Of a DNA stretch of 32,000 nucleotides, positions 2,704-23,722 are shown one piece after another. The notes under the pieces are model-generated. The model was not told the origin of the DNA. It saw nothing but the letters and a program-made list of their open reading frames with translations, and ran no database searches. The stretch spans positions 840,001 to 872,000 of the forward strand of contig OZ246396.1 of NCBI GenBank assembly GCA_965230905.1. The letters run 5' to 3'. The translations under genes were made by a program, and so were the position numbers. Position 1 is the first letter of the stretch, and each line of letters starts with the position of its first letter. The stretch comes from Candidatus Saccharimonadota bacterium. Its GTDB lineage: Bacteria > Patescibacteriota > Gracilibacteria > UBA1369 > 2-02-FULL-48-14.

Positions 2704-2735
2704 TGGCTCCCTTGATTGGAGGCAATTAGAACTGC
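2704..2735 (-). repeat. Partial copy of the tRNA-Asn 3' end (att-like), most distal copy
   Basis: tggctcccttgattggaggcaattagaactgc compares with the tRNA 3' end tggctcccccggttggattcgaacc. It has the same orientation and carries the 5-nt insertion shared by the whole repeat family. Confidence 0.7.
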
Positions 2736-2758
2736 ACGGCGTACACAATGTTTTAGCC

Positions 2759-3100
2759 CTAATTCCCCGCAGTTCGATGTGAAAGTCGGATGGGTTTCGG
2801 TTCTTGCATTCTTGGGCTACGCATATTCAGCTCTAAACTTTGTCCTGCTGTTAATGTTTGAACAATGTCGTAGTGAGTGGATAGTATTTCTCTCGTAGCT
2901 CCCTCTACTATATCTATCCCTGCTCGAGATTTGAATACCGTTGAATCTCTATCATTTCGGTCGCATTCGAAAACATAGATTTCACGACTTCCATCCTCCT
3001 TTAGATTGGACATCGAACCCGGTTGAGCGCCTGGCTTCAGTACTGCAATTTCTTTCCAACTACCTTCGATAGAAGTTTCAATGTGTAATAGCATATTCAA
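2759..3100 (-). CDS. Hypothetical protein (113 aa)
   Basis: ORF only. No motif recognised. It is divergent from the 3199 gene. Confidence 0.45.
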   Translation of the reverse strand: MNMLLHIETSIEGSWKEIAVLKPGAQPGSMSNLKEDGSREIYVFECDRNDRDSTVFKSRAGIDIVEGATREILSTHYDIVQTLTAGQSLELNMRSPRMQEPKPIRLSHRTAGN

Positions 3101-3149
3101 TAGGTTAGTTCGTTACTATACTTTATATCAGCAATATGTCAACAATTCA

Positions 3150-3178
3150 TTGACGTCATGGTAATAATGTTGTATCAT
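3150..3178 (+). promoter_or_regulatory. Sigma-70-type promoter for the 3199 gene
   Basis: ttgacg (3150-3155), a 17-nt spacer, then tg-tatcat (extended -10, 3171-3178). It lies 20 nt upstream of the ATG. Confidence 0.45.
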
Positions 3179-3198
3179 CCTAGCTCTTAATCTGTTCT

Positions 3199-4161
3199 AT
3201 GCACACACCTGCTACCGCCTTACAGCTTCTACAAACACCTGAATACGAGCAAATTAAAGCGCCTTTTCAAAGGGCTGTTCAGGAGTGGATTGGGGCGCAG
3301 GAGGGCAACTGGCAACGGTTGGTCGTAAACCCTCGTAGTTGTGGACTGCAAGGTCAAATGGCTTTCAATGAACGAGCTTTAGAACCCTTTCTAGGGGGCC
3401 AGTTTCGTGCGTTCTGGGATTCCCTTTCAGAAGAGCAAAGACAGCTCTTTGGACGTGCTAATAATAGAATGGGATGGAGGCACTTCTTCCTTGAAACGGC
3501 TGCTACCATGTTTGATGCAACACTCATGAATGCCATTGAGCAAGGGCTCATTCCACATCCGGATGGAAAAGTCGTTGGAACAGAACGAGCGGGAATGCCG
3601 GGTTCGCTTGAAGATGATACTGCTCGAGCTAAGGGGTCCATGACTTATGACTTGGAACAGGTTCTTGCTGAACACCTAAAATACTATTCTTCAGGTAACG
3701 CAGGAGAAGATCAGCAATTCATGGATGCCTTGATAGATTATCTTGGTTTGGATATAGACCGTGCGAATGCGTTGATGTCTAGGGTTTTGGAGCATCACGG
3801 TCTTCCCAATCTTCATAAGGCTCGACGAACTTACGGTGCACTTTTGCAGACTGCTCTGCTTCAGTGTTATGGAAAGCGAGATGCTTATTGGCGAACGACG
3901 CCCGAAGAAATTGTTCCTGATCAGGTTCAAAGTCATAGCTGGCCAAAAGCTTATCGTCAGTTACCACTTTTAGATGCTGTATTGGAATCTTCTCTTTGGT
4001 TTTATGATCCGGTAAAGATAGAAGCTTGTCATGCTGACTTGGTCGCACGTCATCCGCAGGATGCAAATCCAGAGCATGAGGCTAACCTTGCCCAAGGGCA
4101 AAGAATCATTGATGCGCTTCAAGCTTTTCGAACACGAGTTCTTGGTGAAGGACAGGTTTAA
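3199..4161 (+). CDS. Hypothetical protein (320 aa)
   Basis: A long ORF with its own promoter. No family recognised. Confidence 0.65.
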   Translation: MHTPATALQLLQTPEYEQIKAPFQRAVQEWIGAQEGNWQRLVVNPRSCGLQGQMAFNERALEPFLGGQFRAFWDSLSEEQRQLFGRANNRMGWRHFFLETAATMFDATLMNAIEQGLIPHPDGKVVGTERAGMPGSLEDDTARAKGSMTYDLEQVLAEHLKYYSSGNAGEDQQFMDALIDYLGLDIDRANALMSRVLEHHGLPNLHKARRTYGALLQTALLQCYGKRDAYWRTTPEEIVPDQVQSHSWPKAYRQLPLLDAVLESSLWFYDPVKIEACHADLVARHPQDANPEHEANLAQGQRIIDALQAFRTRVLGEGQV

Positions 4162-4173
4162 GATCCTCAGTTC

Positions 4174-4211
4174 GCAATGCATGACGTTCCTCTATTAATC
4201 TCGTGTATAAT
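4174..4211 (+). promoter_or_regulatory. Copy of the conserved portable promoter block (gcaatgcATGACG..TATAAT)
   Basis: -35-like atgacg at 4181-4186 and tataat at 4206-4211, with a 19-nt spacer. The upstream gcaatgcatgacgtt matches the blocks at 6013, 7731 and 12532. Confidence 0.5.
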
Positions 4212-4217
4212 CCGAGC

Positions 4218-5000
4218 ATGATTTTTTATGTTCAGTTAATACTATCTTTTCTTGTTGGCGGCTTATTCATTGCTTTACAAACGTTAATTGCCGAGAGAGT
4301 TTCTCCACTATGGAGGGGGGTTATACTTACGATTCCTTCCACGATGGCCTTAGGCTTGTTTTTTATAGGTTTATCAAAAAGCTCTCAAGACGTAACTGAG
4401 GCGGCAACGATTGTTCCAATAACGCTGGGGATAGACTACCTTTTTGTGGCCGTTTTCTCTTTAATGGTAGGCTTTGGCCTTTGGACCAGTCTTTTTGTAT
4501 CACTCTTCGTTTGGGGGCTTACAGCAGTGTTGATTTTACAGTTTCCACCTAACAGTTTCCTTAGCTCAACGGCTTTAGGAATGCTGCTTATAGTGTTGTC
4601 CTATCTCATGGTGCGTATTCCCACAGGAGTTCAAACCCTGAAGAAATTTCCAATGAATGCCAGGCACATTATTGTTAGAGCACTCATCGGAGGAACCGTT
4701 GTTACCCTTGCATTATTCCTTTCAAAAACTCTGGGTAATGTATGGGGAGGGCTATTTTCAGCTTTCCCGGCTACCTTTTCATCGACCTTTATTATTTACT
4801 ATTACTTGCAAGGGAAGGAAGCCATTCCTACTGTAAGTAGAGCCCTCTTTTTCCCTGGAGCCATTGGATTTATTGTTTATGCATGGGTCGCCTCAGTCAC
4901 CTTTTCTAGTTTTGGTATTTGGCTTGGGACCTTAGTTTCGTACCTGGCGGTTTTCATTTTTGTTTGCTCATGGACATTTTTAGCGCGAAGCCGAAAATAA
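4218..5000 (+). CDS. Polytopic membrane protein with an internal duplication (DUF3147-like)
   Basis: The ORF-track start (GTG 4203) overlaps the TATAAT box, so I prefer the ATG at 4218. The protein has about 8 hydrophobic segments. The two halves resemble each other (FLVGGLFIALQTLIAERV.. versus ALIGGTVVTLALFLSKTL..). Confidence 0.7.
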   Translation: MIFYVQLILSFLVGGLFIALQTLIAERVSPLWRGVILTIPSTMALGLFFIGLSKSSQDVTEAATIVPITLGIDYLFVAVFSLMVGFGLWTSLFVSLFVWGLTAVLILQFPPNSFLSSTALGMLLIVLSYLMVRIPTGVQTLKKFPMNARHIIVRALIGGTVVTLALFLSKTLGNVWGGLFSAFPATFSSTFIIYYYLQGKEAIPTVSRALFFPGAIGFIVYAWVASVTFSSFGIWLGTLVSYLAVFIFVCSWTFLARSRK

Positions 5001-5051
5001 TGCAGGATTTGATGTGCGGCAGCTATGCTGTTGGAGGTAATTGGAAATTCG

Positions 5052-5079
5052 TTGATAAATTTTAAACTTTCATTATAAT
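5052..5079 (+). promoter_or_regulatory. Sigma-70-type promoter for the 5097 gene
   Basis: ttgata (5052-5057), a 16-nt spacer, then tataat (5074-5079). Confidence 0.5.
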
Positions 5080-5096
5080 CAGACCTTATCTTAAAT

Positions 5097-5978
5097 ATGG
5101 CTAAAGAAATCGCTGAAGGCAGAAACTTATTAGGCATAAGCAATACTTACATGCGGCAGCAGCCTTGGTTTGAACATGCGCGTGGCCCCATAGAAGGAAT
5201 TCTGGCGAGTGTTCGTAAGTTAACAGTGATTCCTTATGCTTTAGCAGACCGTGATTGGTATACCCAAAAATTGGGAGCAGAATTCGCCCGTTTTGGTGTA
5301 GAATCCGTGGTTTCTCCTCATCAATTTCCAGGTTCTGAAGAACAGGTTTTAGCTGATGCCGAAGCAGTTTACATCGGAGGAGGGGATACGCCACTTTTAG
5401 TCGCTAATCTTCATGGACTTCGGCATGAAGATGATCAAACGCTGGTGGATTCAGGCGCTGCGAGCTCACAGAATCCGTTAGTTGATGTGCTTCGAAATCG
5501 TGTAGCTGAAGGAATGCCTCTACTAGGGGCAAGTGCAGGTTGGAACGTTATGTTTGGTGACATTAGAACTACTAACGATATGCATACAGCTCCTTGGAGA
5601 CTTGCTAATGGAGCCAGTGTTTCTCGTATGGATGCACTTGGTTTGTTCCCCAGACATTTGAATGGGAATCCTCACTATTTAGAAAAAGTGACACTTACGG
5701 ATGAGGACAGGGCTGCGGCAGTAGCTGTTAACGGTGATTTGGCTCAACTCATTGACCATCAGGGTGAGTCGAGAAAAGAGCGTATTGCTAGAGCTTTGAG
5801 TCAGGATCCTTCTCGAGTGATTATTGCTCTTAGGGAAGGTGCTTATTTGAGCGTTCAAGGGTCTACTATGGTTTTGGGCGGAGAAACCGGTGGGTTGATT
5901 TTTGAGAAGGGGCTGGATGCCAAAGAAGTATCGATAGGAGAAGATTTGAGCTATTTGTTGAAAAATCGAAATAGTTAG
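5097..5978 (+). CDS. Peptidase E-like protein (S51 family / type-1 glutamine amidotransferase-like fold)
   Basis: VIPYALADRDWY, AVYIGGGDTPLL and LLGASAGWNVMFGDIRTTNDM..LGLFP..NPHY parallel the PepE blocks FIPYA, GGGNTF and GWSAGAN..TIRTTNDMP..NPHF. Confidence 0.75.
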   Translation: MAKEIAEGRNLLGISNTYMRQQPWFEHARGPIEGILASVRKLTVIPYALADRDWYTQKLGAEFARFGVESVVSPHQFPGSEEQVLADAEAVYIGGGDTPLLVANLHGLRHEDDQTLVDSGAASSQNPLVDVLRNRVAEGMPLLGASAGWNVMFGDIRTTNDMHTAPWRLANGASVSRMDALGLFPRHLNGNPHYLEKVTLTDEDRAAAVAVNGDLAQLIDHQGESRKERIARALSQDPSRVIIALREGAYLSVQGSTMVLGGETGGLIFEKGLDAKEVSIGEDLSYLLKNRNS

Positions 5979-5984
5979 ACGAAA

Positions 5985-6010
5985 AGTTAGAGCGCCCAAT
6001 TTGGCTGATC
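5985..6010 (+). repeat. Junction repeat of the inverted type (agttagagcgcccaatttggctgatc)
   Basis: It differs at 3 of 26 positions from 12437-12462. Both copies lie just 3' of a plus-strand cassette gene. The AGTT..CCAAnTTGG blocks resemble the reverse complement of the att-like repeat. Confidence 0.6.
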
Positions 6011-6012
6011 TC

Positions 6013-6045
6013 GTGCATGATGTTCATTTCGCCTTTTGCTATAAT
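6013..6045 (+). promoter_or_regulatory. Copy of the portable promoter block
   Basis: gtgcATGATGttcatttcgccttttgcTATAAT, with a 17-nt spacer. It is homologous to 12532-12569. Confidence 0.5.
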
Positions 6046-6063
6046 CAAAACAAACCAAGCTAT

Positions 6064-6212
6064 ATGCCCGTCAAAAATATTCTCCAAAAAAAAGAGCAAA
6101 GTATATGAGTGCTTTTGAAGAACAGATGATTTATCACACAACTAAAACTGAAAACCCTGAGACAACGCTTCGAATGGTGAGGCAGGTGCTTCGTAAATTC
6201 CCCTCTGTATGA
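6064..6212 (+). pseudogene. Decayed copy of the small Fic-antitoxin gene
   Basis: The ATG at 6064 reads MPVKNILQKKEQSI and then stops. A second frame from 6105 reads MSAFEEQMIYHTTKTENPETTLRMVRQVLRKFPSV, which aligns with the C-terminal half of the intact copy at 12590-12769. The downstream Fic gene is missing; only a 34-codon stub follows. Confidence 0.6.
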
Positions 6213-6229
6213 AGGGTAAGGGCTCCTCT

Positions 6230-6633
6230 TTATCTACCTACGGGGATTTCTTTCAACATTTCGAAAGGGTCGACACTATGATCATAAGTTGCTGCTTTGT
6301 ACGTATCAATTAGTGCGAGAATTTTTGTATTACGTTCCAAAGAAGACATTTTTTTGATTTTTTTGCACTATATTTGTTGAGGAACGCTTTAAATGCAAAA
6401 CGTTCAACTAAGCTACTCCAATAGGTGTCTTCATTGTATTTCTCAAGACCCGCTTCCGGACCATGGGAATAGATTAGACCCGCAACATCTTCATATTTAT
6501 GATCAATAATATTAGGTTCATTTTTTGAATTTACGATCGAATTGCCGAGATGTACTAGCTCAAGTAAAGATTTGAACTGTTTTTTGAAAGTTTGATGTCC
6601 ATAAATGTTTCTTAGGAGCTGGAGCTTCTCATG
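6230..6633 (-). pseudogene. Gene remnant with no start codon and probably a frameshift
   Basis: The minus frame is open across 6310-6633 (107 codons) but contains no ATG, GTG or TTG. A 39-codon ORF (6230-6349, MSSLERNTKILALIDTY..) continues in another frame across an A-rich tract. Confidence 0.3.
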
Positions 6634-6667
6634 CTATTCGAAGATTATTTCAAATGCAAGCTTTCTG

Positions 6668-6713
6668 AAAACCCGCCATTACTTTGCAATAAGTGCGGGG
6701 AGATTAGTGAAAT
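6668..6713 (+). repeat. 46-bp direct repeat, left copy, flanking the zeta-toxin module
   Basis: aaaacccgccattactttgcaataagtgcggggagattagtgaaat differs from 7770-7815 at 4 of 46 positions by my manual alignment. Confidence 0.8.
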
Positions 6714-6715
6714 GA

Positions 6716-6877
6716 CTAAGAAACAGGTGCTATCTCTTTATTTGCAACAGCTTGCTCGTATCTGGCTAAAAGAGCCTGTTGATCTTTACTTGCCTCTTTG
6801 AGGACCCCTTTAATGAACTTCTTCTTTTCGGAAGACTTCATGTTGAGGTAATCGGAGACGGTATTGATGTGGTTCAT
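6716..6877 (-). CDS. Small ORF (53 aa) directly downstream of the zeta-toxin gene
   Basis: MNHINTVSDYLNMKSSEKKKFIKGVLKEASKDQQALLARYEQAVANKEIAPVS. Its ATG lies 3 nt after the zeta stop codon. No family recognised. Confidence 0.3.
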   Translation of the reverse strand: MNHINTVSDYLNMKSSEKKKFIKGVLKEASKDQQALLARYEQAVANKEIAPVS

Positions 6878-6880
6878 ACT

Positions 6881-7604
6881 TTATTTGAGAATTTTCTGCA
6901 GCAGATTACTATTGTACCCTGTTTTCAGGTGGCGGTCAATTTCGGTGATGTTCAAAAAGAACTCTTCGAGACCTATATTATCCTTATTTTTGATAGCAAG
7001 GTTAACTTTTACGCTTGCGCCGAATTCCTTTTTGATTTTATTCACATTCTCCTTGGCGAGGAAAAATGCCTCAATGAAATCAGACATCAAAATGCGCCTG
7101 CCTTCGAGGGCTTCGCGCTTCTTTGTGAAGTCCCAAGCAATTTTTGGATCTTGGTAAATGTACCAAATTTCCACATGCCAGTCTCTTTTTATGACTCGTG
7201 AAGGTCCCGTCCAGTATGAAATTTTTGTTATTGCCTATGGCGTGGTCGACAAGTTTATCTACTCCCTTCGATGCAGCCCCTTGAACCAGGTGAGAATTTT
7301 TGCCGTTGTAGAGGTTCCGAGGAAGCATTTCTCTGACCTCATCCGCGTCAATTCGTAAAATCTTGCCGCTGAGTTTTGGCAAACCTTTGATGAAACTTTT
7401 TGAGAATTCCGTCTTCCCAGCTCCTGGTGAGCCAGCCATAAAGATGGCCAGAGGAGTTTCCTCTTTTGATACAGGTTGAATCTTTCCAGCAAATTTTTCA
7501 ATGATTTCTTTCTTATGTTCAACAACGTACTGACGAGCTGAATCTGAAACCCTCTCGTTTCTGCCTTTCATGAGAAAGTCGAAAATTCTTCTCAATAAGT
7601 TCAT
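6881..7604 (-). pseudogene. Zeta-toxin family P-loop kinase, frameshifted
   Basis: ORF 7080..7604 carries the Walker A motif FMAGSPGAGKTEF and ILDGTF. ORF 6881..7174 continues with VEIWYIYQDPKIAWDFTKKREALEGRRI, the zeta C-terminal region. The two frames meet at the T5 run at 7186-7190 (A5 on the coding strand). Confidence 0.75.
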
Positions 7605-7644
7605 GCGCAGATTTTAACAGTGCTGAGTCCTTTCGTCGATTGGG

Positions 7645-7694
7645 AGTTCGGATACTGTCAAAATGGCTCCCCCGTATTTGATGCTATCCGAACT
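7645..7694. repeat. Head-to-head pair of att-like copies forming a 10-bp perfect inverted repeat
   Basis: agttcggata (7645-7654) and tatccgaact (7685-7694) are exact reverse complements. The right arm belongs to the att-like copy tggctcccccgtatttgatgctatccgaact (7664-7694). Confidence 0.7.
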
Positions 7695-7769
7695 TTTGTG
7701 ATGGGCGAGGGGTGGGGCTTCGGTGGAAGTGCACAATGTGCATGACGTTCATTTTTCTTGCTCCATCAA

Positions 7770-7815
7770 AAAACCCTCCATTACTTTGCAATAAGGGTGA
7801 GGAGATTAGTGAAAT
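7770..7815 (+). repeat. 46-bp direct repeat, right copy
   Basis: See 6668-6713. It is preceded at 7731-7769 by a decayed copy of the promoter block, in which the -35 atgacg survives at 7742-7747 and the -10 is lost. Confidence 0.8.
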
Positions 7816-7882
7816 TTAAAGAAAGTTTCCTGCTCTCTTACGCGTTCATCATCAGATTCGTGAGAAATTACATCGAAGTGTC

Positions 7883-7911
7883 TTGCAGGTTGGCCAATTT
7901 TACTGTATAAT
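7883..7911 (+). promoter_or_regulatory. Sigma-70-type promoter for the 7941 gene
   Basis: ttgcag (7883-7888), a 17-nt spacer ending in tg, then tataat (7906-7911). The tgtataatatata string recurs at 11896-11908. Confidence 0.5.
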
Positions 7912-7940
7912 ATATAGATTTATTCTGTTACCAGAGTCCC

Positions 7941-10106: not shown

Positions 10107-10130
10107 TTATTTCGATGCATTCATAGAAGC

Positions 10131-10177
10131 GGTCCCTCTACTCACCATAACCTGGGAGTTGGAGGGGCCGTTTTGGG
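10131..10177 (+). terminator. Possible intrinsic terminator
   Basis: ggtccctc (10131-10138) pairs with gaggggcc (10162-10169), including one G-U pair, and is followed by gtttt. The 23-nt loop is long for a terminator. Confidence 0.3.
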
Positions 10178-10221
10178 TGAGAACAATTTTACTCCAAACC
10201 ACGGAAATTCGATCATCCAAA

Positions 10222-10251
10222 TGGCTCCCCACTCTGGAGGAAGTTAGAACT
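10222..10251 (-). repeat. Partial copy of the tRNA-Asn 3' end (att-like), degenerate
   Basis: tggctccccactctggaggaagttagaact. Confidence 0.55.
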
Positions 10252-10924
10252 ATATTGGCCAAACTCTACCTGGGTAATATAGGCGTACCCCTTTAATTCT
10301 ACATAGATGCGCAATCGGGATGTTGTAATGGCTCTGCCAATCTTTAGTGACACCGCATGCCGCTCTTAATTCTTCTGAATATGGCATTACAAGTACAACT
10401 GGATCCACTCTTTGATCCTGATAAATAGGGTCAAAAGCACCCCTTATTGCGTACATGGCTGCAGTATGAAAACCATCTAAAGTTGAGTTTACTGATCCAT
10501 CGGATTCATTTGGGTGATTATTGGTTACTATCACCGAATTTCCTTCAATTTGTACGAAACGTAGGCGTCTAAGTAGCGTACCTCTAAAAAGATGTCTTTG
10601 ACCTCCAAGCTCACTTTCTTCGAAAGTTGGTAGCTGAAGGGCCAAAGCTTCGGAAGTTTCTGTGAGTTTTCTCTCTAAGGAGTCTTTTTGCCTGCTAAGT
10701 TGGACAAAGCTCCGGCGCCATGGACTTTCTTCCATGAGTCTATTCACTTCATCTGTCCATGAATTGTCGTTGGTTATTCTTAGTGCATCAACAATTCTCA
10801 TCTTACTGGCAAGAACACCTGAAGATTGATCTCCCCTCTGTGCTTGCTCGAGTTGTACACGGTCGTATTCGCCAGCAAGCTTTGAGTGTTCTTCACAAAT
10901 TGAAGAAAGGTCAGATGATGACAT
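10250..10924 (-). CDS. Hypothetical protein (224 aa), a single-gene cassette
   Basis: A clean ORF lying between two att-like copies. A minus-strand gctataat box sits about 20 nt upstream of the ATG. No family recognised. Confidence 0.6.
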   Translation of the reverse strand: MSSSDLSSICEEHSKLAGEYDRVQLEQAQRGDQSSGVLASKMRIVDALRITNDNSWTDEVNRLMEESPWRRSFVQLSRQKDSLERKLTETSEALALQLPTFEESELGGQRHLFRGTLLRRLRFVQIEGNSVIVTNNHPNESDGSVNSTLDGFHTAAMYAIRGAFDPIYQDQRVDPVVLVMPYSEELRAACGVTKDWQSHYNIPIAHLCRIKGVRLYYPGRVWPI

Positions 10925-10973
10925 AGATTCAATAAAGAGCGTGATTATAGCTCATAAAGCTTTTACGTCCAAA

Positions 10974-11004
10974 TGGCTCCTCAAGTTGGAAGCAATTAGG
11001 ACTG
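10974..11004 (-). repeat. Partial copy of the tRNA-Asn 3' end (att-like)
   Basis: tggctcctcaagttggaagcaattaggactg. It ends 3 nt before the hicA stop codon. Confidence 0.7.
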
Positions 11005-11007
11005 AAT

Positions 11008-11238
11008 TTACTTTACTTGTTTCATAAACTCATCCACAGTTATATCCATATCTCGTATAAACTGCTTTAGCAGACCTTTCCCTATAGTTTTTTTTGGGTG
11101 ATTTGGGACAGAAAGAATATTGTTACCATTTGCACTTTCAAATATAACATGACTGCCTTTTTGCCTCACCGGCAAATAGCCAAACTTTTTTAGAATCTTC
11201 TCGAGCTCTTTGAATTTTAAGATAGGTAGATAACTCAC
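11008..11238 (-). CDS. hicA: HicA family toxin (mRNA interferase)
   Basis: 76 aa. KELEKILKKFGYLPVRQKGSHVIF..VPNHPKKTIGKGLLKQFIRDM matches the HicA pattern, including the GSH motif. Confidence 0.85.
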   Translation of the reverse strand: MSYLPILKFKELEKILKKFGYLPVRQKGSHVIFESANGNNILSVPNHPKKTIGKGLLKQFIRDMDITVDEFMKQVK

Positions 11239-11468
11239 GCGGCAAGTGATATTTCCTCAGTGGCGATGAACTTTGGATAGTATTTAAGTTCTTTGAATTC
11301 CATTTTGTTTTTCTCTCCTAGATGCTCAATACAAAGCTCCATTGCTTCTGTAATATTCTCCAAAGCTTCCTCGTAGGTGTCACCTTGGGAGTGGCACCCC
11401 TTGATGGCCGGACAGGAGGAAATGTATTTCCCGTCTTCGTCGCGCTGTATAAGTACTTGGAATTTCAT
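11235..11468 (-). CDS. hicB: HicB family antitoxin, short form (UPF0150 fold only)
   Basis: 77 aa. MKFQVLIQRDEDGKYISSCPAIKGCHSQGDTYEEALENITEAMELCIE matches the HicB N-terminal domain. No C-terminal DNA-binding extension is present. It overlaps hicA through a 4-nt ATGA. Confidence 0.8.
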   Translation of the reverse strand: MKFQVLIQRDEDGKYISSCPAIKGCHSQGDTYEEALENITEAMELCIEHLGEKNKMEFKELKYYPKFIATEEISLAA

Positions 11469-11743
11469 GTGCTAGTGAGGTTTATAAAGTCATTATAGCA
11501 TTCAGCATTGTCGGCTGCTAGGTCCATAGATTTAAATATTTCGCCTTTTTTATTTTTATAGATGCCTTTTCGGTAAGAAAATTGGTTCTTGACTGTATCT
11601 TTTTCAATCCATCTTCTCTCTTTTTTCGTCGTATATTCTTCCTTCCCGACGTAGGCGTGACCAAGGAAGGTTTTTTCCCCATTGTCATCCTCGAAAAAGA
11701 TCTCAGCTAATCTTCCGTTAATAAGTGCAAAACACCAACCCAT
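11465..11743 (-). CDS. Conserved small protein (92 aa), first gene of the hicB-hicA operon
   Basis: MGWCFALINGRLAEIFF.. It overlaps hicB through a 4-nt ATGA. A paralog lies at 13340-13576, and the first 17 codons of the two copies differ only at synonymous positions. Confidence 0.7.
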   Translation of the reverse strand: MGWCFALINGRLAEIFFEDDNGEKTFLGHAYVGKEEYTTKKERRWIEKDTVKNQFSYRKGIYKNKKGEIFKSMDLAADNAECYNDFINLTST

Positions 11744-11797
11744 AAAATTAATTATTCTAAAACTAGAACGGTTAATACTTATGAAAGTTACATAAAA

Positions 11798-11829
11798 TGG
11801 CTCCCCAAGTTGGATGCAATTAGAACTGC
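11798..11829 (-). repeat. Partial copy of the tRNA-Asn 3' end (att-like)
   Basis: tggctccccaagttggatgcaattagaactgc. Confidence 0.7.
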
Positions 11830-11931
11830 GGTGTTGGTGTGAACGACTTGATAAACTAGGTCCATGGGAGCCAATTGTTTAATCCACATTTTTATTGTAT
11901 AATATATATACTCTTAGTTGGACTTCTTTCT

Positions 11932-12414
11932 ATGTCGCTAAATGAAAAACTAACTCAGACCTCTGATCCACTTCGTTCAGTCTCGGATGAGGATTTGATA
12001 ATTATACTAAATAGAGCCATAGAAGGAGGTTTTTCTCCTTTAGATTTTATGAACTGTAACTACTATGATCTGAAACAACTTCAGAGGCTAGCTAGAGGAG
12101 AAAAGGAGAAAGCCTTGGCAGGTGGAGCTAGTCGTCTTGATTCTTTGCTGCAAACTTTAGGGGAAAAGATCCCTGAGCGTATGCGAATAGATACTCAGCG
12201 AATAAAATCAGGAGAATGGAAACTTCCCACAGGTGACATTCGCTCGGAAGCCTATGAGCTAGAGATGGCAGAGTTGACTGATGCGGTCGATAGAGTTGGG
12301 AAAAATTTAGATCGAATAACCGATATTGGACCTGAAGTAGCATCTTTACAAAAAAGTGTAGAAAGAATGGCAGCTGCTTTCCGTCCAGACGAAGAGCAGG
12401 GGATAGTTCATTGA
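11932..12414 (+). CDS. Hypothetical protein (about 160 aa)
   Basis: The ORF 11875..12414 was trimmed to the ATG at 11932, because tg-tataat at 11896-11903 lies inside the longer ORF. No family recognised. Confidence 0.55.
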   Translation: MSLNEKLTQTSDPLRSVSDEDLIIILNRAIEGGFSPLDFMNCNYYDLKQLQRLARGEKEKALAGGASRLDSLLQTLGEKIPERMRIDTQRIKSGEWKLPTGDIRSEAYELEMAELTDAVDRVGKNLDRITDIGPEVASLQKSVERMAAAFRPDEEQGIVH

Positions 12415-12436
12415 TTTCTATTTTGACTTCATAAAA

Positions 12437-12462
12437 AGTTCGAGCGTCCAATTTGGCTGGTC
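12437..12462 (+). repeat. Junction repeat of the inverted type (agttcgagcgtccaatttggctggtc)
   Basis: It matches 5985-6010 and lies 22 nt after the stop codon of the 11932 gene. Confidence 0.6.
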
Positions 12463-12487
12463 ACGGTTTTAATCTGTAAAATTAAAT

Positions 12488-12519
12488 TGGCTCTCTAAGT
12501 TGGAAGCAATTAGAACTGC
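12488..12519 (-). repeat. Partial copy of the tRNA-Asn 3' end (att-like)
   Basis: tggctctctaagttggaagcaattagaactgc. Confidence 0.7.
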
Positions 12520-12531
12520 ACTGCTTCGTTT

Positions 12532-12569
12532 GCAATGTGCATGACGGTCGTTTTTAAGTTTGCTATAAT
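12532..12569 (+). promoter_or_regulatory. Portable promoter block driving the antitoxin-Fic operon
   Basis: gcaatgtgcATGACGgtcgtttttaagtttgcTATAAT. The -35-like box is at 12541-12546 and the -10 at 12564-12569, with a 17-nt spacer. Confidence 0.55.
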
Positions 12570-12589
12570 CCAAATACTTCAATCAAAGT

Positions 12590-12769
12590 ATGCCGATCCA
12601 AAAAATGTTAAAAGCGTTCAGGTCCTATCAAAAAACTCGTGGTAGTAAACGGGCTGCTTATATGAAGTCTTTTGAGGCAAAAATGATTTATCGAACCACT
12701 AAAACTGAGAACCCAGAAACGACTCCTCTCTTGGTCAAGCAGGTGCTTCGTAAATACAAGTCTGTATGA
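12590..12769 (+). CDS. Small Fic antitoxin (59 aa) carrying the inhibitory motif
   Basis: MPIQKMLKAFRSYQKTRGSKRAAYMKSFEAKMIYRTTKTENPETTPLLVKQVLRKYKSV. T36-T-K-T-E40-N41 fits the [S/T]xxxE[G/N] inhibitory helix of class I Fic antitoxins. Its stop codon overlaps the Fic ATG (gtATGA). It falls just below the ORF-track cutoff. Confidence 0.65.
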   Translation: MPIQKMLKAFRSYQKTRGSKRAAYMKSFEAKMIYRTTKTENPETTPLLVKQVLRKYKSV

Positions 12770-13383
12770 AACGCACAGGAGAAACGGCTTATAAGGAAAC
12801 TGCATTTGGTATTCTTCCACGATCAAAACTGATCCCTCTAGAGATTGAGGGGATTAAGAGGGCCTGGGACTTTGTGTTGGAACAGGAACTTAAGGGCAAA
12901 ATTTTAATCACACCCTCTTCTCTCCAAAAGATTCATGCAGTCGGTTTTGGATGGATTTTCCCTGAAATGGGTGGAAAGTTTAGAACGACTGAAGTGACAG
13001 TTTCCAAACATAAACCGCCGCGCTTCTTTCAAGTTCCTCAATTGATGGAAGATTTTACCGAGGATTTGAAGGTTAGGCTGAAGGGTTTGCCTGAATTTGA
13101 AGGAGAGGGCTTTTTGAAAGAACTTGTAGAGCTTTTAGCATGGACGCACCATCGATTCTTATGGATTCATCCTTTTTTCGATTACAATGGTCGAATAGCT
13201 AGACTGCTCATCAGTATGATTTTGATGAACTTGAATTTACCTCCGATAGAACTTCGAGTGGAAACTAGGATGAGTAGGATTAAATATGTGAAAGCTCTCA
13301 GCGAAGCGGATGAAGGAGATTTTACTTCGCTTGAAAAACTTATTCGTGCAGCTCTTGAGGAGGCTGCTGGGGATTTGGGTTGA
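12766..13383 (+). CDS. Fic/DOC family protein with a variant active-site motif
   Basis: 205 aa containing HPFFDYNGRIAR. The canonical motif is HxFx(D/E)GNGRxxR, so a Tyr replaces the first Gly. Confidence 0.85.
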   Translation: MKRTGETAYKETAFGILPRSKLIPLEIEGIKRAWDFVLEQELKGKILITPSSLQKIHAVGFGWIFPEMGGKFRTTEVTVSKHKPPRFFQVPQLMEDFTEDLKVRLKGLPEFEGEGFLKELVELLAWTHHRFLWIHPFFDYNGRIARLLISMILMNLNLPPIELRVETRMSRIKYVKALSEADEGDFTSLEKLIRAALEEAAGDLG

Positions 13384-13576
13384 TCTCTGTATACTTCCCA
13401 CCTTTGTATTTGAATTGGTAGCTACTGATATCCTTTTTAATCCAAGTTTTTTCCTGTTTGGTTTTATATTCTTCTTCCTCAACAAAACAATGTCCTTCCA
13501 GTAAAGTTTTTTTACCTTTTTTATCAAAAAAGATCTCTGCAAGTCGTCCATTGATGAGTGCGAAACACCAACCCAT
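13340..13576 (-). CDS. Paralog of the MGWCF small protein (78 aa from the ATG at 13576)
   Basis: MGWCFALINGRLAEIFFDKKGKKTLLEGHCFVEEEEYKTKQEKTWIKKD.. The 30 nt upstream of the ATG are identical to 11744-11773. The 3' end runs convergently into the Fic 3' end, so the C-terminus may not be native. Confidence 0.5.
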   Translation of the reverse strand: MGWCFALINGRLAEIFFDKKGKKTLLEGHCFVEEEEYKTKQEKTWIKKDISSYQFKYKGGKYTEINPNPQQPPQELHE

Positions 13577-13629
13577 AAAATTAATTATTCTAAAACTAGA
13601 ACGGTTGATGTTTATGGAAGTTACAAATC

Positions 13630-13659
13630 TGGCTCCCCAGGTTGGAAGCAATTCGAACT
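13630..13659 (-). repeat. Partial copy of the tRNA-Asn 3' end (att-like), the copy closest to the tRNA sequence
   Basis: tggctccccaggttggaagcaattcgaact. It equals the tRNA 3' end apart from one mismatch and the 5-nt insertion. Confidence 0.75.
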
Positions 13660-13837
13660 AATCTACTAAATCTCTGTAAAAATTCTCACGCGTTCCAATC
13701 GCTACAACGATAATATTGTTCCTTACTTCGTAGGCAACTCTATATTGGGTATGTACAAAACTAAAATGATGGGATCGTAGATTCTTAACCAGGGTGTATG
13801 CGTTAATAAAGTGGCGCGCCTTGCCGGAGGGTTTGAC
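13658..13837 (-). pseudogene. RelE/ParE-family toxin remnant, N-terminally truncated with no start codon
   Basis: The minus frame reads VKPSGKARHFINAYTLVKNLRSHHFSFVHTQYRVAYEVRNNIIVVAIGTRENFYRDLVD and then stops. The YRVAYEV..IIVVAIG.RE..Y tail is the RelE/ParE C-terminal pattern. An in-frame stop lies at 13838-13840 and there is no partner antitoxin. Confidence 0.55.
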
Positions 13838-13873
13838 TTAAGCTATTTTTAACTCTATAAAATTTGCTTTTAC

Positions 13874-14773
13874 ATGCACGAAGGATATCTAAATAGAGCT
13901 GGTAAGCTGTATGAAGCGGCTGTTGGAGCATGTGGCCCAAGAACAGTGGAGGGTCAAAAACGATATACCGATGGTTTTGAGGCCTACTTAAAAGGATATG
14001 CGGTAGCATTAGCAGAAAGCTCACAAGACGATGGAGGTAATGATCTCGAGAAAATAGATGGACAATTTAAGAGTATATTTGATTGCGCTAAAACAGAAGC
14101 AAAATTCAGTAACCAAGAGTGGGACCGTATAGCATGGGAACCCACAACGAGAATATCAATAGATAGGTGGATAAGGACGGTTATGTCTTTTAATGATGAT
14201 CATAATAATGAGATTGATCAAGAATTTTTTCCGGTAGATTTAATTTTACACTTTCTCAACGATATTAAAGAACGATCCCAACAATCTGGTGGGAGGCTGG
14301 ATCTGGTTGATCAATATAATATTGCCCTAAATTTAACGGGTAATGATTTAATCAGCGCTGCCTTGTTAGCACATGCGGCTTACAGGTCAGTCGGGCGAGT
14401 ATTGGACACAAGAGTGAGCGGTAAATTACGTTTTCCGGTGGAAGCTTCAGACGGAAGGATTTCTATGATAGATATTGCTAAAAGTACGGCGCACTTCAAC
14501 ATGGGCGATGCAATATGTGCCGACCCCCTGGGGGATACTTACCATTTTTGGGCACAGTTTAGTACAGGACTCGTTCTGGAATTATATGGAGATAGACCTA
14601 TTCGAGCTACTCAAGCAAAGGTGGTTAAAGCGATTTTTAGAATCGGGCCAGATTTAATGCGCTTTGGTCGTGAAACTATTAGGGGTCATAAAATGATTGC
14701 CGGCAATCATAAGCAAGTTGACTTATATGGATTACAGTTAGGTTCTGAGATGGGTAGATCAATCTCTCAGTGA
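13874..14773 (+). CDS. Hypothetical protein (299 aa), the cassette nearest the tRNA
   Basis: A clean ORF ending 26 nt from the tRNA 3' end. No family recognised. Confidence 0.6.
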   Translation: MHEGYLNRAGKLYEAAVGACGPRTVEGQKRYTDGFEAYLKGYAVALAESSQDDGGNDLEKIDGQFKSIFDCAKTEAKFSNQEWDRIAWEPTTRISIDRWIRTVMSFNDDHNNEIDQEFFPVDLILHFLNDIKERSQQSGGRLDLVDQYNIALNLTGNDLISAALLAHAAYRSVGRVLDTRVSGKLRFPVEASDGRISMIDIAKSTAHFNMGDAICADPLGDTYHFWAQFSTGLVLELYGDRPIRATQAKVVKAIFRIGPDLMRFGRETIRGHKMIAGNHKQVDLYGLQLGSEMGRSISQ

Positions 14774-14799
14774 ATATTCTAAACTCGCAAAATACTAAA

Positions 14800-14874
14800 T
14801 GGCTCCCCCGGTTGGATTCGAACCAACGACCCAGCGATTAACAGTCGCTTGCTCTACCACTGAGCTACAGGGGA
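14800..14874 (-). tRNA. tRNA-Asn (anticodon GTT)
   Basis: The manual fold of TCCCCTG-TA-GCTC-AGTGGTA-GAGC-A-AGCGA-CTGTTAA-TCGCT-GGGTC-GTTGG-TTCGAAT-CCAAC-CGGGGGA-G-CCA gives a 75-nt cloverleaf with an encoded CCA. Confidence 0.93.
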
Positions 14875-16161: not shown

Positions 16162-16245
16162 GTGGAGCAAGGGTACAGCAAAACTTTGATTTGTGCACGC
16201 GGTCCGTGCGAGTTACATTGTGCCTACCCCCTTTAACATCAAATT

Positions 16246-18456: not shown

Positions 18457-18530
18457 TGGGGATTAGCCAAGTGGTAAGGCAGCGGGTTCTGGTCCCGCCA
18501 TCGGGGGTTCGAATCCCTCATCCCCAGCCA
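18457..18530 (+). tRNA. tRNA-Gln (anticodon CTG)
   Basis: In the manual fold the acceptor TGGGGAT pairs with ATCCCCA, the anticodon arm is GCGGG-TTCTGGT-CCCGC, the T-loop is TTCGAAT and the end is G-CCA. Length 74 nt. Confidence 0.92.
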
Positions 18531-18719
18531 TGAGTTGCATGACAAAGCCTTGTGACCCGCAAGGCTAGCTTGCACGTGCATGCGGAGATCTGGTTGGATT
18601 TACTCCTTATGTGGTCTTTGGGAAGCGTCCCTATTACTAGACCCGAGAAGGTAGCTTGGAGTGGCATGATTGGAATTCTTACTTTATCTGTTAAGATCAC
18701 TTTGTTTTAAAAAAATTGT

Positions 18720-20889: not shown

Positions 20890-20947
20890 ATCTTATGGGT
20901 TAAGGTCTACCCACATAGATGACAGAACGATCCGACAAGTCTAGAGG

Positions 20948-21862: not shown

Positions 21863-21864
21863 AA

Positions 21865-22827: not shown

Positions 22828-22913
22828 TTTGTGGCCTTTTTACAGCGTGCTCATAGCTTACTACCTTTATGCCATAATGACACTTGTTTTCAGATTCACT
22901 TCACTTTTACAGC

Positions 22914-23390: not shown

Positions 23391-23450
23391 ACTTTTGTTG
23401 GGTTAAAAGGTTAAGCTACAGGCATATTATCCGATTTTGGGTTATTATCA

Positions 23451-23465: not shown

Positions 23466-23472
23466 ACTCTTT

Positions 23473-23688: not shown

Positions 23689-23722
23689 GCTATTAAATAT
23701 AGAGGGGTAGTGTTGGCATTTT

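What the first reader, a model, noticed from the sequence alone, without database searches (positions are those of the whole stretch)
2704..14874. Seven degenerate copies of the tRNA-Asn 3' end split a 12-kb island into mini-cassettes that lack any recombinase
Seen in the sequence: the functional tRNA-Asn(GTT) lies at 14800-14874 on the minus strand. Moving away from its 3' end, partial copies of that end recur in the same orientation. On the plus strand they read TGGCTCCCC..GTTGGA..GAAC, which is CCA, acceptor and T-arm in tRNA sense. The copies are at 13630-13659, 12488-12519, 11798-11829, 10974-11004, 10222-10251, 7664-7694 and 2704-2735. The intervals between them are short and each holds one small functional unit:
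- 13660-14799: a 299-aa unknown protein plus a RelE remnant.
- 12520-13629: the antitoxin-Fic pair plus a truncated MGWCF gene.
- 11830-12487: an unknown protein of about 160 aa.
- 11005-11797: the MGWCF-HicB-HicA operon.
- 10252-10973: a 224-aa unknown protein.
- 7695-10221: the acidic SLH protein.
- 2736-7663: a four-gene block plus decayed modules and the zeta toxin.
Most units have their own TATAAT promoter. None of the ORFs of 60 aa or more in this span shows recombinase or transposase motifs that I can recognise.

Established knowledge: integrases that target tRNA 3' ends leave displaced partial tRNA copies, and repeated insertion builds tandem arrays.

Inference: this is an accretion hotspot whose units (many under 1.2 kb) are far smaller than ordinary integrative elements and encode no recombinase. 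They would have to be moved in trans, or they are fossils. The architecture is closer to integron cassette arrays or to cargo-only tRNA-island satellites than to a classical genomic island. It may represent an undescribed cassette-capture system.
Basis: partly seen in the sequence, partly recalled or inferred. Interest (0 to 1): 0.85.

Follow-up and report, generated by a model that had tools for sequence, protein, structure and literature searches.

The report
Serine-recombinase scars beside tRNA-Asn
The seven "degenerate tRNA ends" are really the cut-off 3' ends of serine-recombinase genes, left behind each time a small gene packet was inserted next to tRNA-Asn, in a layout that recurs across many bacterial phyla.

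Summary
In detail: six strong copies and one weak copy of a ~32-nt repeat lie in one orientation between 2704 and tRNA-Asn (14800-14874). None occurs elsewhere in ~49 kb of this genome.

They are not displaced tRNA ends. They share only TGGCTC(C) plus a T-stem-like stretch with the tRNA, then carry a 5-nt insertion. On the + strand they encode W-L-P-x-L-[DE]-x-[IFV]-R-T. This is the conserved C-terminal tail of a family of large serine recombinases (LSRs, ≥1,800 homologs) whose own 3' end spans the attachment core.

In L113, L137 and L141 the LSR ORF reads into the tRNA-Asn complement and the severed tail lies at the far end of the element. The 5-nt offset matches the published attP/attB half-site rule.

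The island is therefore a tandem accretion array, oldest units distal. Its units encode no recombinase. Similar arrays occur in other Peribacteria, and one 1.14-kb unit is shared by two genomes with both breakpoints on the core.

How the LSR-less units move (in trans, in cis, or not at all) is unresolved. The closest precedent is the Dehalococcoides ssrA islands. I call this a new variant of a known kind.

The parts
14800..14874 (-). tRNA-Asn(GTT), the integration target. Its 3' end read on the + strand is TGGCTCCCCCGGTTGGATTCGAAC, the B-type half-site.
   Evidence: The T-loop complement TTCGAAC starts 17 nt after the T of TGG.
13630..13713 (+). Tail copy, subfamily a: WLPRLEAIRTNLLNLCKNSHAFQSLQR*. 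This is a P'-type half-site plus the orphan 3' end of an LSR gene.
   Evidence: The 27-aa tail is conserved in L084 (81% nt identity over 147 nt).
12488..12544 (+). Tail copy, subfamily a: WLSKLEAIRTALLRLQCA*.
12430..12487 (+). 'Trailer' left of the 12488 tail. It is a decayed copy of the ~55-nt hairpin module that in other Peribacteria sits directly left of tRNA-Asn and of many tails.
   Evidence: nhmmer E 5e-11.
11798..11842 (+). Tail copy, subfamily a: WLPKLDAIRTAVLV*.
10974..11027 (+). Tail copy, subfamily a: WLLKLEAIRTEFTLLVS*.
10222..10296 (+). Tail copy, subfamily b: WLPTLEEVRTILAKLYLGNIGVPL*.
   Evidence: Same subfamily as L084 3591, L130 2433 and L134.
10147..10221 (+). Possible remnant of the last ~25 codons of an LSR gene body, in frame with the 10222 tail (weak).
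   Evidence: tblastn of LSR C-terminal fragments, 37 aa, E 0.002. In-frame reading.
7664..7694 (+). Tail copy, subfamily c (WLPVFDAIRTFV type), broken by a 1-nt insertion.
   Evidence: aligned with L084 4982 and L034 3618.
7645..7694 (.). 50-bp near-palindrome centred on TGGCTC|C at the 7664 junction (unexplained).
   Evidence: 16 of 25 mirrored matches against a background maximum of 14. DNA fold z-score -2.3.
2704..2735 (+). Outermost tail copy, subfamily a, with an in-frame stop (WLP*LEAIRT). This is the junction with the conserved chromosome (DoxX gene 2269-2622).
   Evidence: The same outer junction follows the DUF4256/DoxX genes in L081 and L084.
5980..6013 (+). Trailer remnant marking a former junction. 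Compared with 12434-12574, the 71 nt holding the rest of the trailer and the tail have been deleted. A decayed antitoxin copy follows.
   Evidence: (D2, D10, D11).
13714..14799 (.). Unit 1 (newest): 299-aa unknown protein (13874-14773, +).
12545..13629 (.). Unit 2: 59-aa antitoxin and Fic (12590-13383, +), plus a truncated paralogue of the 92-aa gene (13340-13651, -).
   Evidence: A homologous Fic unit lies behind a different tail subfamily in L034.
11843..12429 (.). Unit 3: unknown protein of 160-179 aa (+).
11028..11797 (.). Unit 4: 92-aa unknown protein, HicB and HicA operon (-).
10297..10973 (.). Unit 5: 224-aa unknown protein (10250-10924, -); its 3' end runs on to 10250, overlapping the tail-b ORF (10222-10296).
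7695..10146 (.). Unit 6: 721-aa acidic SLH-domain protein (7941-10106, +).
2736..7644 (.). Oldest block, at least two former units. It holds a 113-aa ORF, a 320-aa ORF, DUF3147 and peptidase S51, then decayed antitoxin modules and a zeta-toxin fragment (7080-7604, -).
14965..16170 (-). Conserved chromosomal flank (methyltransferase). It is syntenic next to tRNA-Asn in L087, L112, L054 and L133.

Best explanation
Each repeat is the element-side (P') half of a large-serine-recombinase attachment site. It is at the same time the last 13-27 codons of that recombinase's own gene. In this LSR family the crossover core TGGCTC(C) is the complement of the ...GAGCCA 3' end of tRNA-Asn and lies at the W-L codons near the end of the ORF. 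On integration the gene body ends up fused to the tRNA complement and reads ...W-L-x-x-L-D-S-N-Q-R-P. The severed tail (W-L-P-x-L-[DE]-x-[IFV]-R-T...) marks the far end of the insert. The tail's TT(A/C)GAAC motif sits 5 bp further from the core than the tRNA's TTCGAAC, as expected for an attP half-site compared with an attB half-site. Repeated recombination at this core has stacked units between the chromosome (DoxX gene) and the tRNA. The newest units lie next to the tRNA and the distal ones are decaying. At least three tail lineages contributed. The units carry only cargo (toxin-antitoxin pairs, Fic, a surface protein, a peptidase, unknowns) and no recombinase, so they are non-autonomous. 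I infer that they were placed, and can be reshuffled, by an LSR encoded elsewhere. That LSR could be a resident or visiting element acting in trans, or one that travelled with them and then left (accretion and cis-mobilisation). Shown: the identity of the repeat, the integrated geometry in relatives, the position of the core, the recurrence of arrays, and unit-level exchange at the core. Inferred: the order of insertion, and who moved the LSR-less units.
For: The repeat is coding on the + strand: the arginine codon switches between AGA and CGA, and substitutions are conservative across phyla. It forms the C-terminus of full-length LSRs in L071, L127, L128 and P0089/P0071, and of LSR C-terminal fragments (L062, L135/P0151, P0152). 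In L113 the LSR ORF runs into tRNA-Asn and its tail lies 5.5 kb away; the two junctions share only TGGCTCC. L137 and L141 show the same arrangement. Of the best 120 of at least 1,800 homologs, 87 end in the translated tRNA complement. LSRs that are at least 90% identical diverge right after W-L and are fused to different tRNA-Asn stems. The 5-nt offset (motif at +22 against +17) is constant and matches Rutherford et al. 2013, PMC3783163. In 22 loci the tail lies 0.4-5.5 kb downstream of tRNA-Asn in this same geometry, and only one of those intervals holds an LSR. Arrays occur in Peribacteria L133, with at least 5 tails in 7.4 kb, and in L134, L131, L054 and L084. A single unit is exchanged between L131 and L133 with both breakpoints on the core. 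The distal copies carry a stop codon or a frameshift, and one junction has been deleted.
Against: No LSR with a matching tail was found in the ~49 kb of source genome I could read; the rest of the 1.3-Mb genome was not searchable. Canonical LSRs recombine only attP with attB, so stacking requires either relaxed specificity (as with Ccr) or regeneration of attB, and neither was shown. No strain-level presence/absence variant or circular junction was seen in the source population; all contigs are about 100% identical. The left half-sites are not understood: the junctions lack dyad symmetry, and the nature of the trailer is unresolved.
Confidence: 0.6

Rival explanations
1. Pure fossils. Every unit was once a complete LSR element that integrated in tandem. 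Each recombinase (and replication) gene was later deleted, and nothing in the array is mobile today.
For: Distal tails are broken and one junction is deleted. Possible LSR 3' remnants lie left of the 10222 tail and left of the tRNA. L135 is a truncated LSR gene that still has its tail. Most hits of the HMMER search are short C-terminal fragments. The source population shows no variation.
Against: 21 of 22 tail-to-tRNA intervals lack an LSR, and some are only 0.4-0.65 kb long. A unit that is 99.7% identical sits in different contexts in two genomes, with both breakpoints on the core and no LSR nearby. A conserved ~55-nt module with the same left end recurs at many junctions, which random deletions would not produce. 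Many of the short fragments may simply come from short contigs.
Confidence: 0.25
2. The neighbouring LSR (19597-20889) is the enzyme that services the tRNA-Asn array.
For: It is the only recombinase in ~49 kb. It belongs to the same superfamily (E 1e-16 to the L071 LSR). Its close relatives also diverge at a junction inside their own 3' end, and some are fused to a tRNA complement. tRNA-Gln and tRNA-Asn both end in AGCCA.
Against: Its pre-junction sequence (...LKSGEV) and its fused partners (W-L-E/G-S-G...) differ from the ...KKPF[DE]x11W / W-L-P-x-L-D-S-N design. It sits beside tRNA-Gln, not tRNA-Asn. It has no WLP tail, and no tail-like copy of the tRNA-Gln end exists in the window.
Confidence: 0.08
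3. One reading: the repeats are displaced, mutated copies of the chromosomal tRNA-Asn 3' end, left by classical tRNA-targeting (tyrosine) integrases.
For: 15 of the first 17 nt match the tRNA end, and this is how classical islands are arranged.
Against: All copies share a 5-nt insertion and downstream sequence that are absent from the tRNA. The same variant is conserved as protein-coding LSR sequence in many phyla. In other hosts only TGGCTC matches the local tRNA. No tyrosine recombinase is associated.
Confidence: 0.03
4. The repeat is a generic dispersed element (REP or MITE) or a chance motif.
For: It is short, A/T-flanked and multi-copy.
Against: Six matches against 0.01 expected. All copies are in one orientation within one island, with none in 37 kb of surrounding genome. 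In other genomes the repeat is tied to tRNA-Asn.
Confidence: 0.01

Closest known systems
Dehalococcoides ssrA genomic islands with the DsiB serine recombinase (McMurdie et al. 2011, PMC3146451)
   Same: The integrase is a CcrB-like large serine recombinase. [quoted passage not shown] Tandem islands sit downstream of a tRNA-like gene and are bounded by repeats of that gene's 3' end. Fifteen islands lack an integration module and were proposed to be cis-mobilisable.
   Different: The target here is tRNA-Asn, not tmRNA. Hosts are Patescibacteria and many other phyla. Units are 0.4-5 kb rather than large islands. There is no six-gene integration module. The repeat is recognised here as a P' half-site with a 5-bp shift and a conserved peptide. 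Homology of these LSRs to DsiB itself was not tested.
SCCmec / pseudo-SCC composite islands (CcrAB, CcrC)
   Same: Large serine recombinases insert cassettes at the 3' end of one conserved gene. Tandem arrays are separated by short direct repeats, and ccr-less elements occur (own knowledge; outlined in PMC3146451). The window's other LSR has weak, sub-threshold similarity to CcrB.
   Different: The SCC target is rlmH, a protein-coding gene. The recombinase gene does not span the att core. SCC cassettes are tens of kb long.
CIMEs and accretion-mobilisation (ICESt1 family; concept cited in PMC3146451 and reviewed in PMC5704250)
   Same: These are non-autonomous units that keep att sites but have no recombination module. 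They are stacked by site-specific accretion and moved in cis by a neighbouring element.
   Different: Those systems use tyrosine integrases and conjugative elements. Here an LSR is involved and no transfer genes are present.
Tycheposons and Prochlorococcus tRNA islands (10.1101/2020.12.28.424599)
   Same: Elements are stacked at tRNA genes and separated by partial tRNA copies. Integrase fragments and extra partial tRNAs are scattered through the islands. Cargo-carrying elements have replication genes. 27 of 937 carry an LSR.
   Different: The hallmark enzyme there is a tyrosine recombinase, and the repeats are true partial tRNAs. Here the repeat is a recombinase-gene tail that shares only 6-7 nt with the tRNA at the crossover.
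Integron cassette arrays
   Same: Arrays of short, mostly single-operon, recombinase-less units, rich in toxin-antitoxin genes, each bounded by a recombination site.
   Different: There is no IntI tyrosine recombinase, attI or Pc. The sites do not fold like attC. Units have their own orientation, and insertion is at a tRNA end.
SSV1-type and Mx8-type integrases whose attP lies inside their own gene (own knowledge)
   Same: Integration splits or re-tails the integrase gene, so the integrated and free forms encode different proteins.
   Different: Those are tyrosine recombinases. SSV1 splits its gene near the 5' end.

Membership tests
tRNA/tmRNA-targeting serine-recombinase islands (ssrA-GI/DsiB type) | Integrase is a large serine recombinase (resolvase, recombinase and zinc-ribbon domains) | tested here: met
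   The family carrying this tail has PF00239, PF07508 and PF13408. This was shown in relatives, not inside the window's island.
tRNA/tmRNA-targeting serine-recombinase islands (ssrA-GI/DsiB type) | An integrase gene is present in the island under study | tested here: not met
   Pfam, NCBIfam and PHROGs find no recombinase in 2704-14874. All seven or more units are of the module-less kind.
tRNA/tmRNA-targeting serine-recombinase islands (ssrA-GI/DsiB type) | The recombinase ORF runs across the att core at its 3' end | tested here: met
   L113, L137 and L141 read into tRNA-Asn. 87 of 120 homologs end in the translated tRNA complement. Divergence starts right after W-L.
tRNA/tmRNA-targeting serine-recombinase islands (ssrA-GI/DsiB type) | Tandem units downstream of the target gene, bounded by same-sense repeats containing its 3' end | tested here: met
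   Window; L133, L134, L131, L054 and L084.
tRNA/tmRNA-targeting serine-recombinase islands (ssrA-GI/DsiB type) | Sequence homology of the recombinase to DsiB | not tested
Some family members are fused to ...CCACCA-type ends (W-W...), which is suggestive only.
Canonical LSR att sites (Rutherford et al. 2013 model) | The zinc-ribbon-domain motif lies 5 bp closer to the centre in attB than in attP | tested here: met
   For the right half-site, TT(A/C)GAAC starts at +22 in tails and TTCGAAC at +17 in tRNA-Asn in all pairs (PMC3783163). The tail position is fixed by the search pattern. The tRNA position is fixed by tRNA structure.
Canonical LSR att sites (Rutherford et al. 2013 model) | Imperfect dyad symmetry of the two half-sites around a central dinucleotide | tested here: inconclusive
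   About a centre at TGGCTC|C only the 7664 junction is symmetric (16 of 25). The attP of intact-tail LSR genes (L127, L128, L071; also the truncated gene in L135) gives 4-8 of 25, which is background. The true centre and the left half-site are unknown.
Integron | IntI tyrosine recombinase with adjacent attI and Pc | tested here: not met
   No tyrosine-recombinase domain was found in any window ORF scanned.
Integron | attC sites: imperfect inverted repeats that fold as single-stranded hairpins | tested here: not met
   DNA folds of 80-nt junction windows give z-scores from +0.7 to -1.3. The exception is 7664 at -2.3.
Tycheposon | Hallmark deep-branching tyrosine recombinase and hallmark replication genes in the element | tested here: not met
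   None in the island. Free relatives carry Rep or DnaD_N together with an LSR.
SCCmec / pseudo-SCC | Ccr recombinases and insertion at the 3' end of rlmH | tested here: not met
   The target is tRNA-Asn. The window's LSR scores 97 bits against a CcrB cut-off of 900.
REP / MITE | Dispersed copies in both orientations, with terminal inverted repeats or target duplications | tested here: not met
   Single orientation, single island, none in the flanks. The repeat is tRNA-Asn-linked elsewhere.

The most novel reading that the evidence does not exclude
The units are true cassettes of an integron-like system driven by a serine recombinase. Each would be a non-autonomous mini-element made only of cargo plus the two arms of an LSR attP: the tail on one side and the ~55-nt 'trailer' on the other. 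A resident or visiting LSR, whose own gene carries the prototype site, would excise, insert and reshuffle them in trans at the 3' end of tRNA-Asn. Integration would regenerate a usable target each time, which implies relaxed directionality. This would be a main route of gene flux in the small genomes of Patescibacteria and would also occur in Acidobacteria and other phyla.
Probability: 0.3. Interest if true: 0.85.

Novelty: new variant of a known kind. Interest (0 to 1): 0.62.

Why it matters
There are four reasons.

1. It corrects a tempting annotation. "Partial tRNA" repeats beside tRNA-Asn can be the severed ends of recombinase genes, and they identify the type of enzyme that built an island even when that enzyme is gone.

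2. It brings into view a very large, apparently unstudied LSR family (at least 1,800 homologs, most of them sequenced in the integrated, tRNA-fused form). The attB is predictable and nearly universal (the tRNA-Asn 3' end; other members use other tRNA ends), and the attP can be read off the gene itself. This is attractive for genome engineering and for testing the attP/attB half-site model.

3. Integration swaps the enzyme's C-terminus. That is a built-in switch that could control directionality.

4. Few mobile elements are known in Patescibacteria. Arrays of sub-kb to few-kb toxin-antitoxin, Fic and surface-protein units, exchanged precisely at the core, give a concrete and testable mechanism for their accessory-gene turnover.

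Tried and rejected
- **Genome scan truncated.** It was informative all the same.
- **No strain variation.** All Hainich and Logan contigs carrying island proteins are about 100% identical to the window, so no presence/absence test was possible in the source population.
- **Cognate LSR in Peribacteria.** Word-indexed search with the L135 fragment found only 2 proteins. The full HMMER search found 633, but with no link to the source genome.
- **Source genome flanks.** Extending by about 8 kb on each side found no LSR and no further tails. One exact-protein look-up failed.
- **Acceptor-stem matching rejected.** I considered that the third tail codon tracks the host tRNA acceptor stem. In most pairs only TGGCTC matches.
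- **Trailer as a decayed LSR 3' arm.** There is a suggestive shared 9-mer and in-frame readings, but the alignment scores are not significant, with z from -1.1 to 3.2. Left open.
- **Terminators at unit ends.** Conserved hairpins with compensatory changes exist in L133, L131 and L134. In the window, however, the 70 nt left of each junction fold no better than random island segments.
- **Dyad symmetry.** Negative for all junctions except 7664.
- **Smaller checks.** The RelE remnant was not found. Promoter enrichment is weak. No copy of the tRNA-Gln 3' end bounds the second island.
- **Literature.** No open-access paper was found on LSRs targeting tRNA-Asn or on such elements in Patescibacteria. 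Durrant et al. 2022 does not mention tRNA.

Full report
**1. Checking the observation**

ARAGORN and Rfam place tRNA-Asn(GTT) at 14800-14874 on the minus strand. The repeat finder returns a 37-nt family with copies at 2699, 10217, 10969, 11793, 12483 and 13625, 73-89% identical to the reference copy. A degenerate pattern built from them matches exactly these six sites, against 0.01 expected by chance. The seventh copy, at 7664, is weaker (nhmmer E 0.08) but real. It aligns with copies in two other genomes and carries a 1-nt insertion.

All copies lie on the + strand, between the tRNA and 2704. No copy occurs in the rest of the window, or in 17 kb of additional flank recovered from the same 1.3-Mb contig.

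No ORF in 2704-14874 matches a recombinase or transposase in Pfam, NCBIfam or PHROGs. Two details did not hold up. No RelE remnant was found. Promoter-like sites are only weakly enriched.

**2. What the repeat is**

The copies match the tRNA only over TGGCTCCCCnnGTTGGA. They then share a 5-nt insertion and further sequence that the tRNA lacks. They therefore resemble each other more than they resemble the tRNA.

These came from Saccharibacteria, Peribacteria, Peregrinibacteria, Parcubacteria, Bryobacterales and other Acidobacteria, Actinomycetota and proteobacteria.

The matches vary the way coding sequence varies. In the + strand frame they read W-L-[P/G/R...]-x-[LVM]-[DE]-[AVE]-[FILV]-R-T, and the arginine is encoded by either AGA or CGA.

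- In L071 this peptide ends a 544-aa large serine recombinase (LSR); L062 holds the C-terminal part of another.
- In L113 the decisive arrangement is visible. A 492-aa LSR ORF runs straight into the complement of tRNA-Asn (...CAENSN-WLRRLDSNQRPRS*). The tail copy (WLPLVDALRTMNEHQV...*) lies 5.5 kb away at the other end of the insert. The two junctions share only TGGCTCC.
- L137 and L141 repeat this arrangement.

**3. The recombinase family**

A search with the L113 enzyme gave at least 1,800 homologs with resolvase, recombinase and zinc-ribbon domains. Of the best 120:

- 87 end in W-L-x-x-x-[DG]-S-N-..., the translated tRNA complement. Most of these are exactly 492 aa long.
- Others are fused to other tRNA ends (W-Y, W-Q, W-C).
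- A few keep a tail.

An index-free HMMER search with a Peribacteria-type C-terminal fragment found 633 relatives. They again diverge immediately after the W codon.

Within clusters at least 90% identical, the same enzyme is fused to tRNA-Asn genes with different stems, and the difference begins at the third codon. This places the crossover in TGGCT(C) and shows recent movement between hosts.

Free or internal forms with an intact tail occur in two places:

- L127, a 5.9-kb contig at 42x coverage with a Rep gene, the LSR and four cargo genes.
- L128, which has DnaD_N and the LSR followed by two LSR-less units.

**4. Fit to known LSR mechanics**

Rutherford et al. showed that the zinc-ribbon-domain motif is the same in attP and attB but sits 5 bp closer to the centre in attB (PMC3783163). 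Here TTCGAAC starts 17 nt after the T of TGG in tRNA-Asn, and TT(A/C)GAAC starts 22 nt after it in every tail.

The "5-nt insertion" is therefore what distinguishes a P' half-site from the tRNA's B half-site. If the cut lies within TGGCTC, the right half-sites measure about 20 bp (B) and 25 bp (P'), which are the canonical sizes.

The left half-sites remain unclear. Junctions show no dyad symmetry about TGGCTC|C, apart from an unexplained 50-bp near-palindrome at 7645-7694.

**5. The window's array**

The source is a Patescibacteria MAG from Hainich groundwater. Its relatives are Peribacteria and Peregrinibacteria, judged from synteny of the flanking methyltransferase, SSB and Gmk genes and from the DUF4256/DoxX flank.

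The outer junction lies right after DoxX in the window (2704), and the corresponding tail follows the same left-flank genes in L081 (7601; only DUF4256 was detected there by similarity). The whole 12.1 kb is therefore inserted material.

The tails fall into three subfamilies, so several LSR lineages contributed:

| Subfamily | Peptide | Window copies |
|---|---|---|
| a | WLPxLEAIRT | 2704, 10974, 11798, 12488, 13630 |
| b | WLPTLEEVRT | 10222 |
| c | WLPVFDAIRTFV | 7664 |

The tails nearest the tRNA are intact. The distal ones carry a stop codon (2704) or a frameshift (7664). One former junction, at 6013, has lost 71 nt including its tail. This gradient fits insertion at the tRNA end.

**6. 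Arrays elsewhere**

- In 22 of the scanned loci a tail lies 0.4-5.5 kb downstream of tRNA-Asn in the same geometry. Only one of those intervals holds an LSR.
- A Peribacteria-specific pattern found L133 in metagenomes. This 1.19-Mb contig has at least five strong tails in 7.4 kb after tRNA-Asn. The same search found L134, L131 and L130.
- L054 and L084 also carry arrays.
- L141 has an LSR element next to the tRNA and, beyond it, a 650-bp unit holding only a zeta/AAA_33 kinase gene.

**7. Test of breakpoints**

L131 and L133 share a 1,143-bp unit (tail, a 326-aa ORF, trailer) at 99.7% identity, with unrelated sequence on both sides. Identity starts at AAAA|TGGCTC of the unit's own tail and stops inside TGGCTCCCCA of the next tail.

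On the right side, the two sequences stay identical through the roughly 75 nt shown upstream of the core (the whole trailer) and begin to differ just after it. On the left side there is no flanking homology at all. Site-specific exchange therefore fits better than homologous recombination.

Two further comparisons agree. The similarity between L034 and L112 ends exactly at TGG, with different tail subfamilies following. Homologous Fic units sit behind tail-a in the window and tail-c in L034.

**8. How the recombinase-less units arise (inference)**

Three routes are compatible with the data:

- (a) Trans-mobilised mini-cassettes that keep only the att arms.
- (b) Cis-mobilisation. An LSR element integrates beside older units, leaves using a distal site, carries them to a new host, and later excises alone.
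- (c) In-place loss of the recombinase genes.

For mobility (a or b):
- The clean single-unit exchange between L131 and L133.
- The tiny size of some units.
- The 21 of 22 LSR-less intervals.
- L128, where an intact LSR is followed by LSR-less units.
- A recurrent ~55-nt "trailer" with a common left end, found left of many junctions and also left of tRNA-Asn itself in L112, L133, L087 and L054. Its hairpin shows compensatory changes.

For decay (c):
- The broken distal tails.
- A truncated LSR in L135.
- Weak LSR-like remnants left of the 10222 tail and of the tRNA.

Whether the trailer is the native tRNA downstream flank or a degenerate LSR 3' arm could not be settled. That question decides whether internal junctions are attL-like or attP-like.

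Classical LSRs recombine only attP with attB, so stacking implies relaxed specificity or regeneration of attB. This is not shown here.

**9. The recombinase in the window**

The only recombinase within ~49 kb is the LSR at 19597-20889, beside tRNA-Gln. Its close relatives also diverge inside their own 3' end (after ...LKSGEV), and some run into a tRNA complement. It has the same design but belongs to a different lineage. It is an unlikely servicer of the tRNA-Asn array.

**10. Comparison with known systems**

The closest precedent is the Dehalococcoides ssrA genomic islands. There, a CcrB-like LSR gene (dsiB) always overlaps the att site at its 3' end. Islands are stacked downstream of the tmRNA gene between 20-bp repeats, and 15 islands lack an integration module and were proposed to be cis-mobilisable (PMC3146451).

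Other partial matches:
- SCCmec composite islands, CIME accretion and tycheposon islands share parts of the logic.
- Integrons share only the look of the array. There is no IntI, and the sites do not fold like attC.

I found no open-access description of tRNA-Asn-targeting LSRs, of their conserved tail, or of such arrays in Patescibacteria.

**11. Verdict**

The repeats are scars of serine-recombinase attachment sites, which are also gene tails, rather than decayed tRNA ends. The array is a tandem accretion of non-autonomous units at tRNA-Asn.

This is a new variant of a known kind. It is widespread, compact and mechanistically legible. The open and interesting question is whether the units behave as true cassettes.

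Noticed in passing
window 18457-28434: A second island lies right of tRNA-Gln(CTG). It holds a 305-aa ORF, an LSR (19597-20889, -), a HEPN_Apea protein, a tRNA_anti-like protein, a large terminase, an HTH protein, an N6/N4 methylase and a ParB-methylase. Relatives of this LSR that are at least 90% identical match it up to ...LKSGEV and then diverge, several into W-L-E/G-S-G..., which is a tRNA complement. This lineage therefore also has its junction inside its own 3' end. No copy of the tRNA-Gln end bounds the island.
   Followed up: partly
window 19602-19640: An 11-bp perfect inverted repeat, GTGACTCTTTT...AAAAGAGTCAC, lies at the 3' end of the LSR gene, where it overlaps the convergent 305-aa ORF. 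It could be a bidirectional terminator or a recombination site.
   Followed up: no
window 7645-7694: A 50-bp near-palindrome is centred on TGGCTC|C at the 7664 junction, with 16 of 25 mirrored matches against a background maximum of 14. No other junction, and no attP of an intact-tail LSR gene, is symmetric.
   Followed up: partly
window 6668-6713 and 7770-7815: A 46-nt repeat (91% identical) with a CCCGC/GCGGG stem lies upstream of ORF 6779 and of the SLH gene. It may be a shared 5' regulatory element.
   Followed up: no
window 11691-11829 and 13524-13661: A 137-nt block (86% identical) spans the start and promoter of the 92-aa 'MGWCF' gene plus the adjacent tail. The second copy of the gene (13340-13651, -) is truncated. 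Several Logan contigs break exactly at this repeat.
   Followed up: partly
window 8118-8270: The SLH protein gene contains acidic 39-nt tandem repeats (WTEED-type).
   Followed up: no
L123 4661-5061: A Hainich H51 contig matches window 14462-9803, but its last 400 nt do not align. This may be a variant inside the SLH gene or an assembly chimera.
   Followed up: no
L127 (5,936-bp contig, 42x coverage): The contig holds Rep (REP_ORF2-G2P), an LSR with an intact tail and four cargo genes (SRAP, trypsin-like and others), with no tRNA. It is a candidate free, replicating form of such an element. No terminal overlap was found.
   Followed up: partly
L112 808-861, L133 (tRNA-Asn flank), L054 6221-6301, window 12430-12487: A trailer hairpin lies downstream of tRNA-Asn. 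Its loop contains a second TGGCT, and its left arm mirrors the tRNA T-arm. At window 10222 and 10974 a similar left arm abuts the core directly.
   Followed up: partly
proteins P0088, P0103, P0125, P0206, P0211 and others: Members of the same LSR family are fused to other tRNA ends (W-Q-G..ESNH, W-Y.., W-C-P.., W-W..DSN). The family as a whole therefore targets several CCA-encoding tRNA or tmRNA genes.
   Followed up: no
L129 3786-4113: A subfamily-a tail lies 220 nt from a tRNA-Gln(TTG) gene rather than from tRNA-Asn.
   Followed up: no
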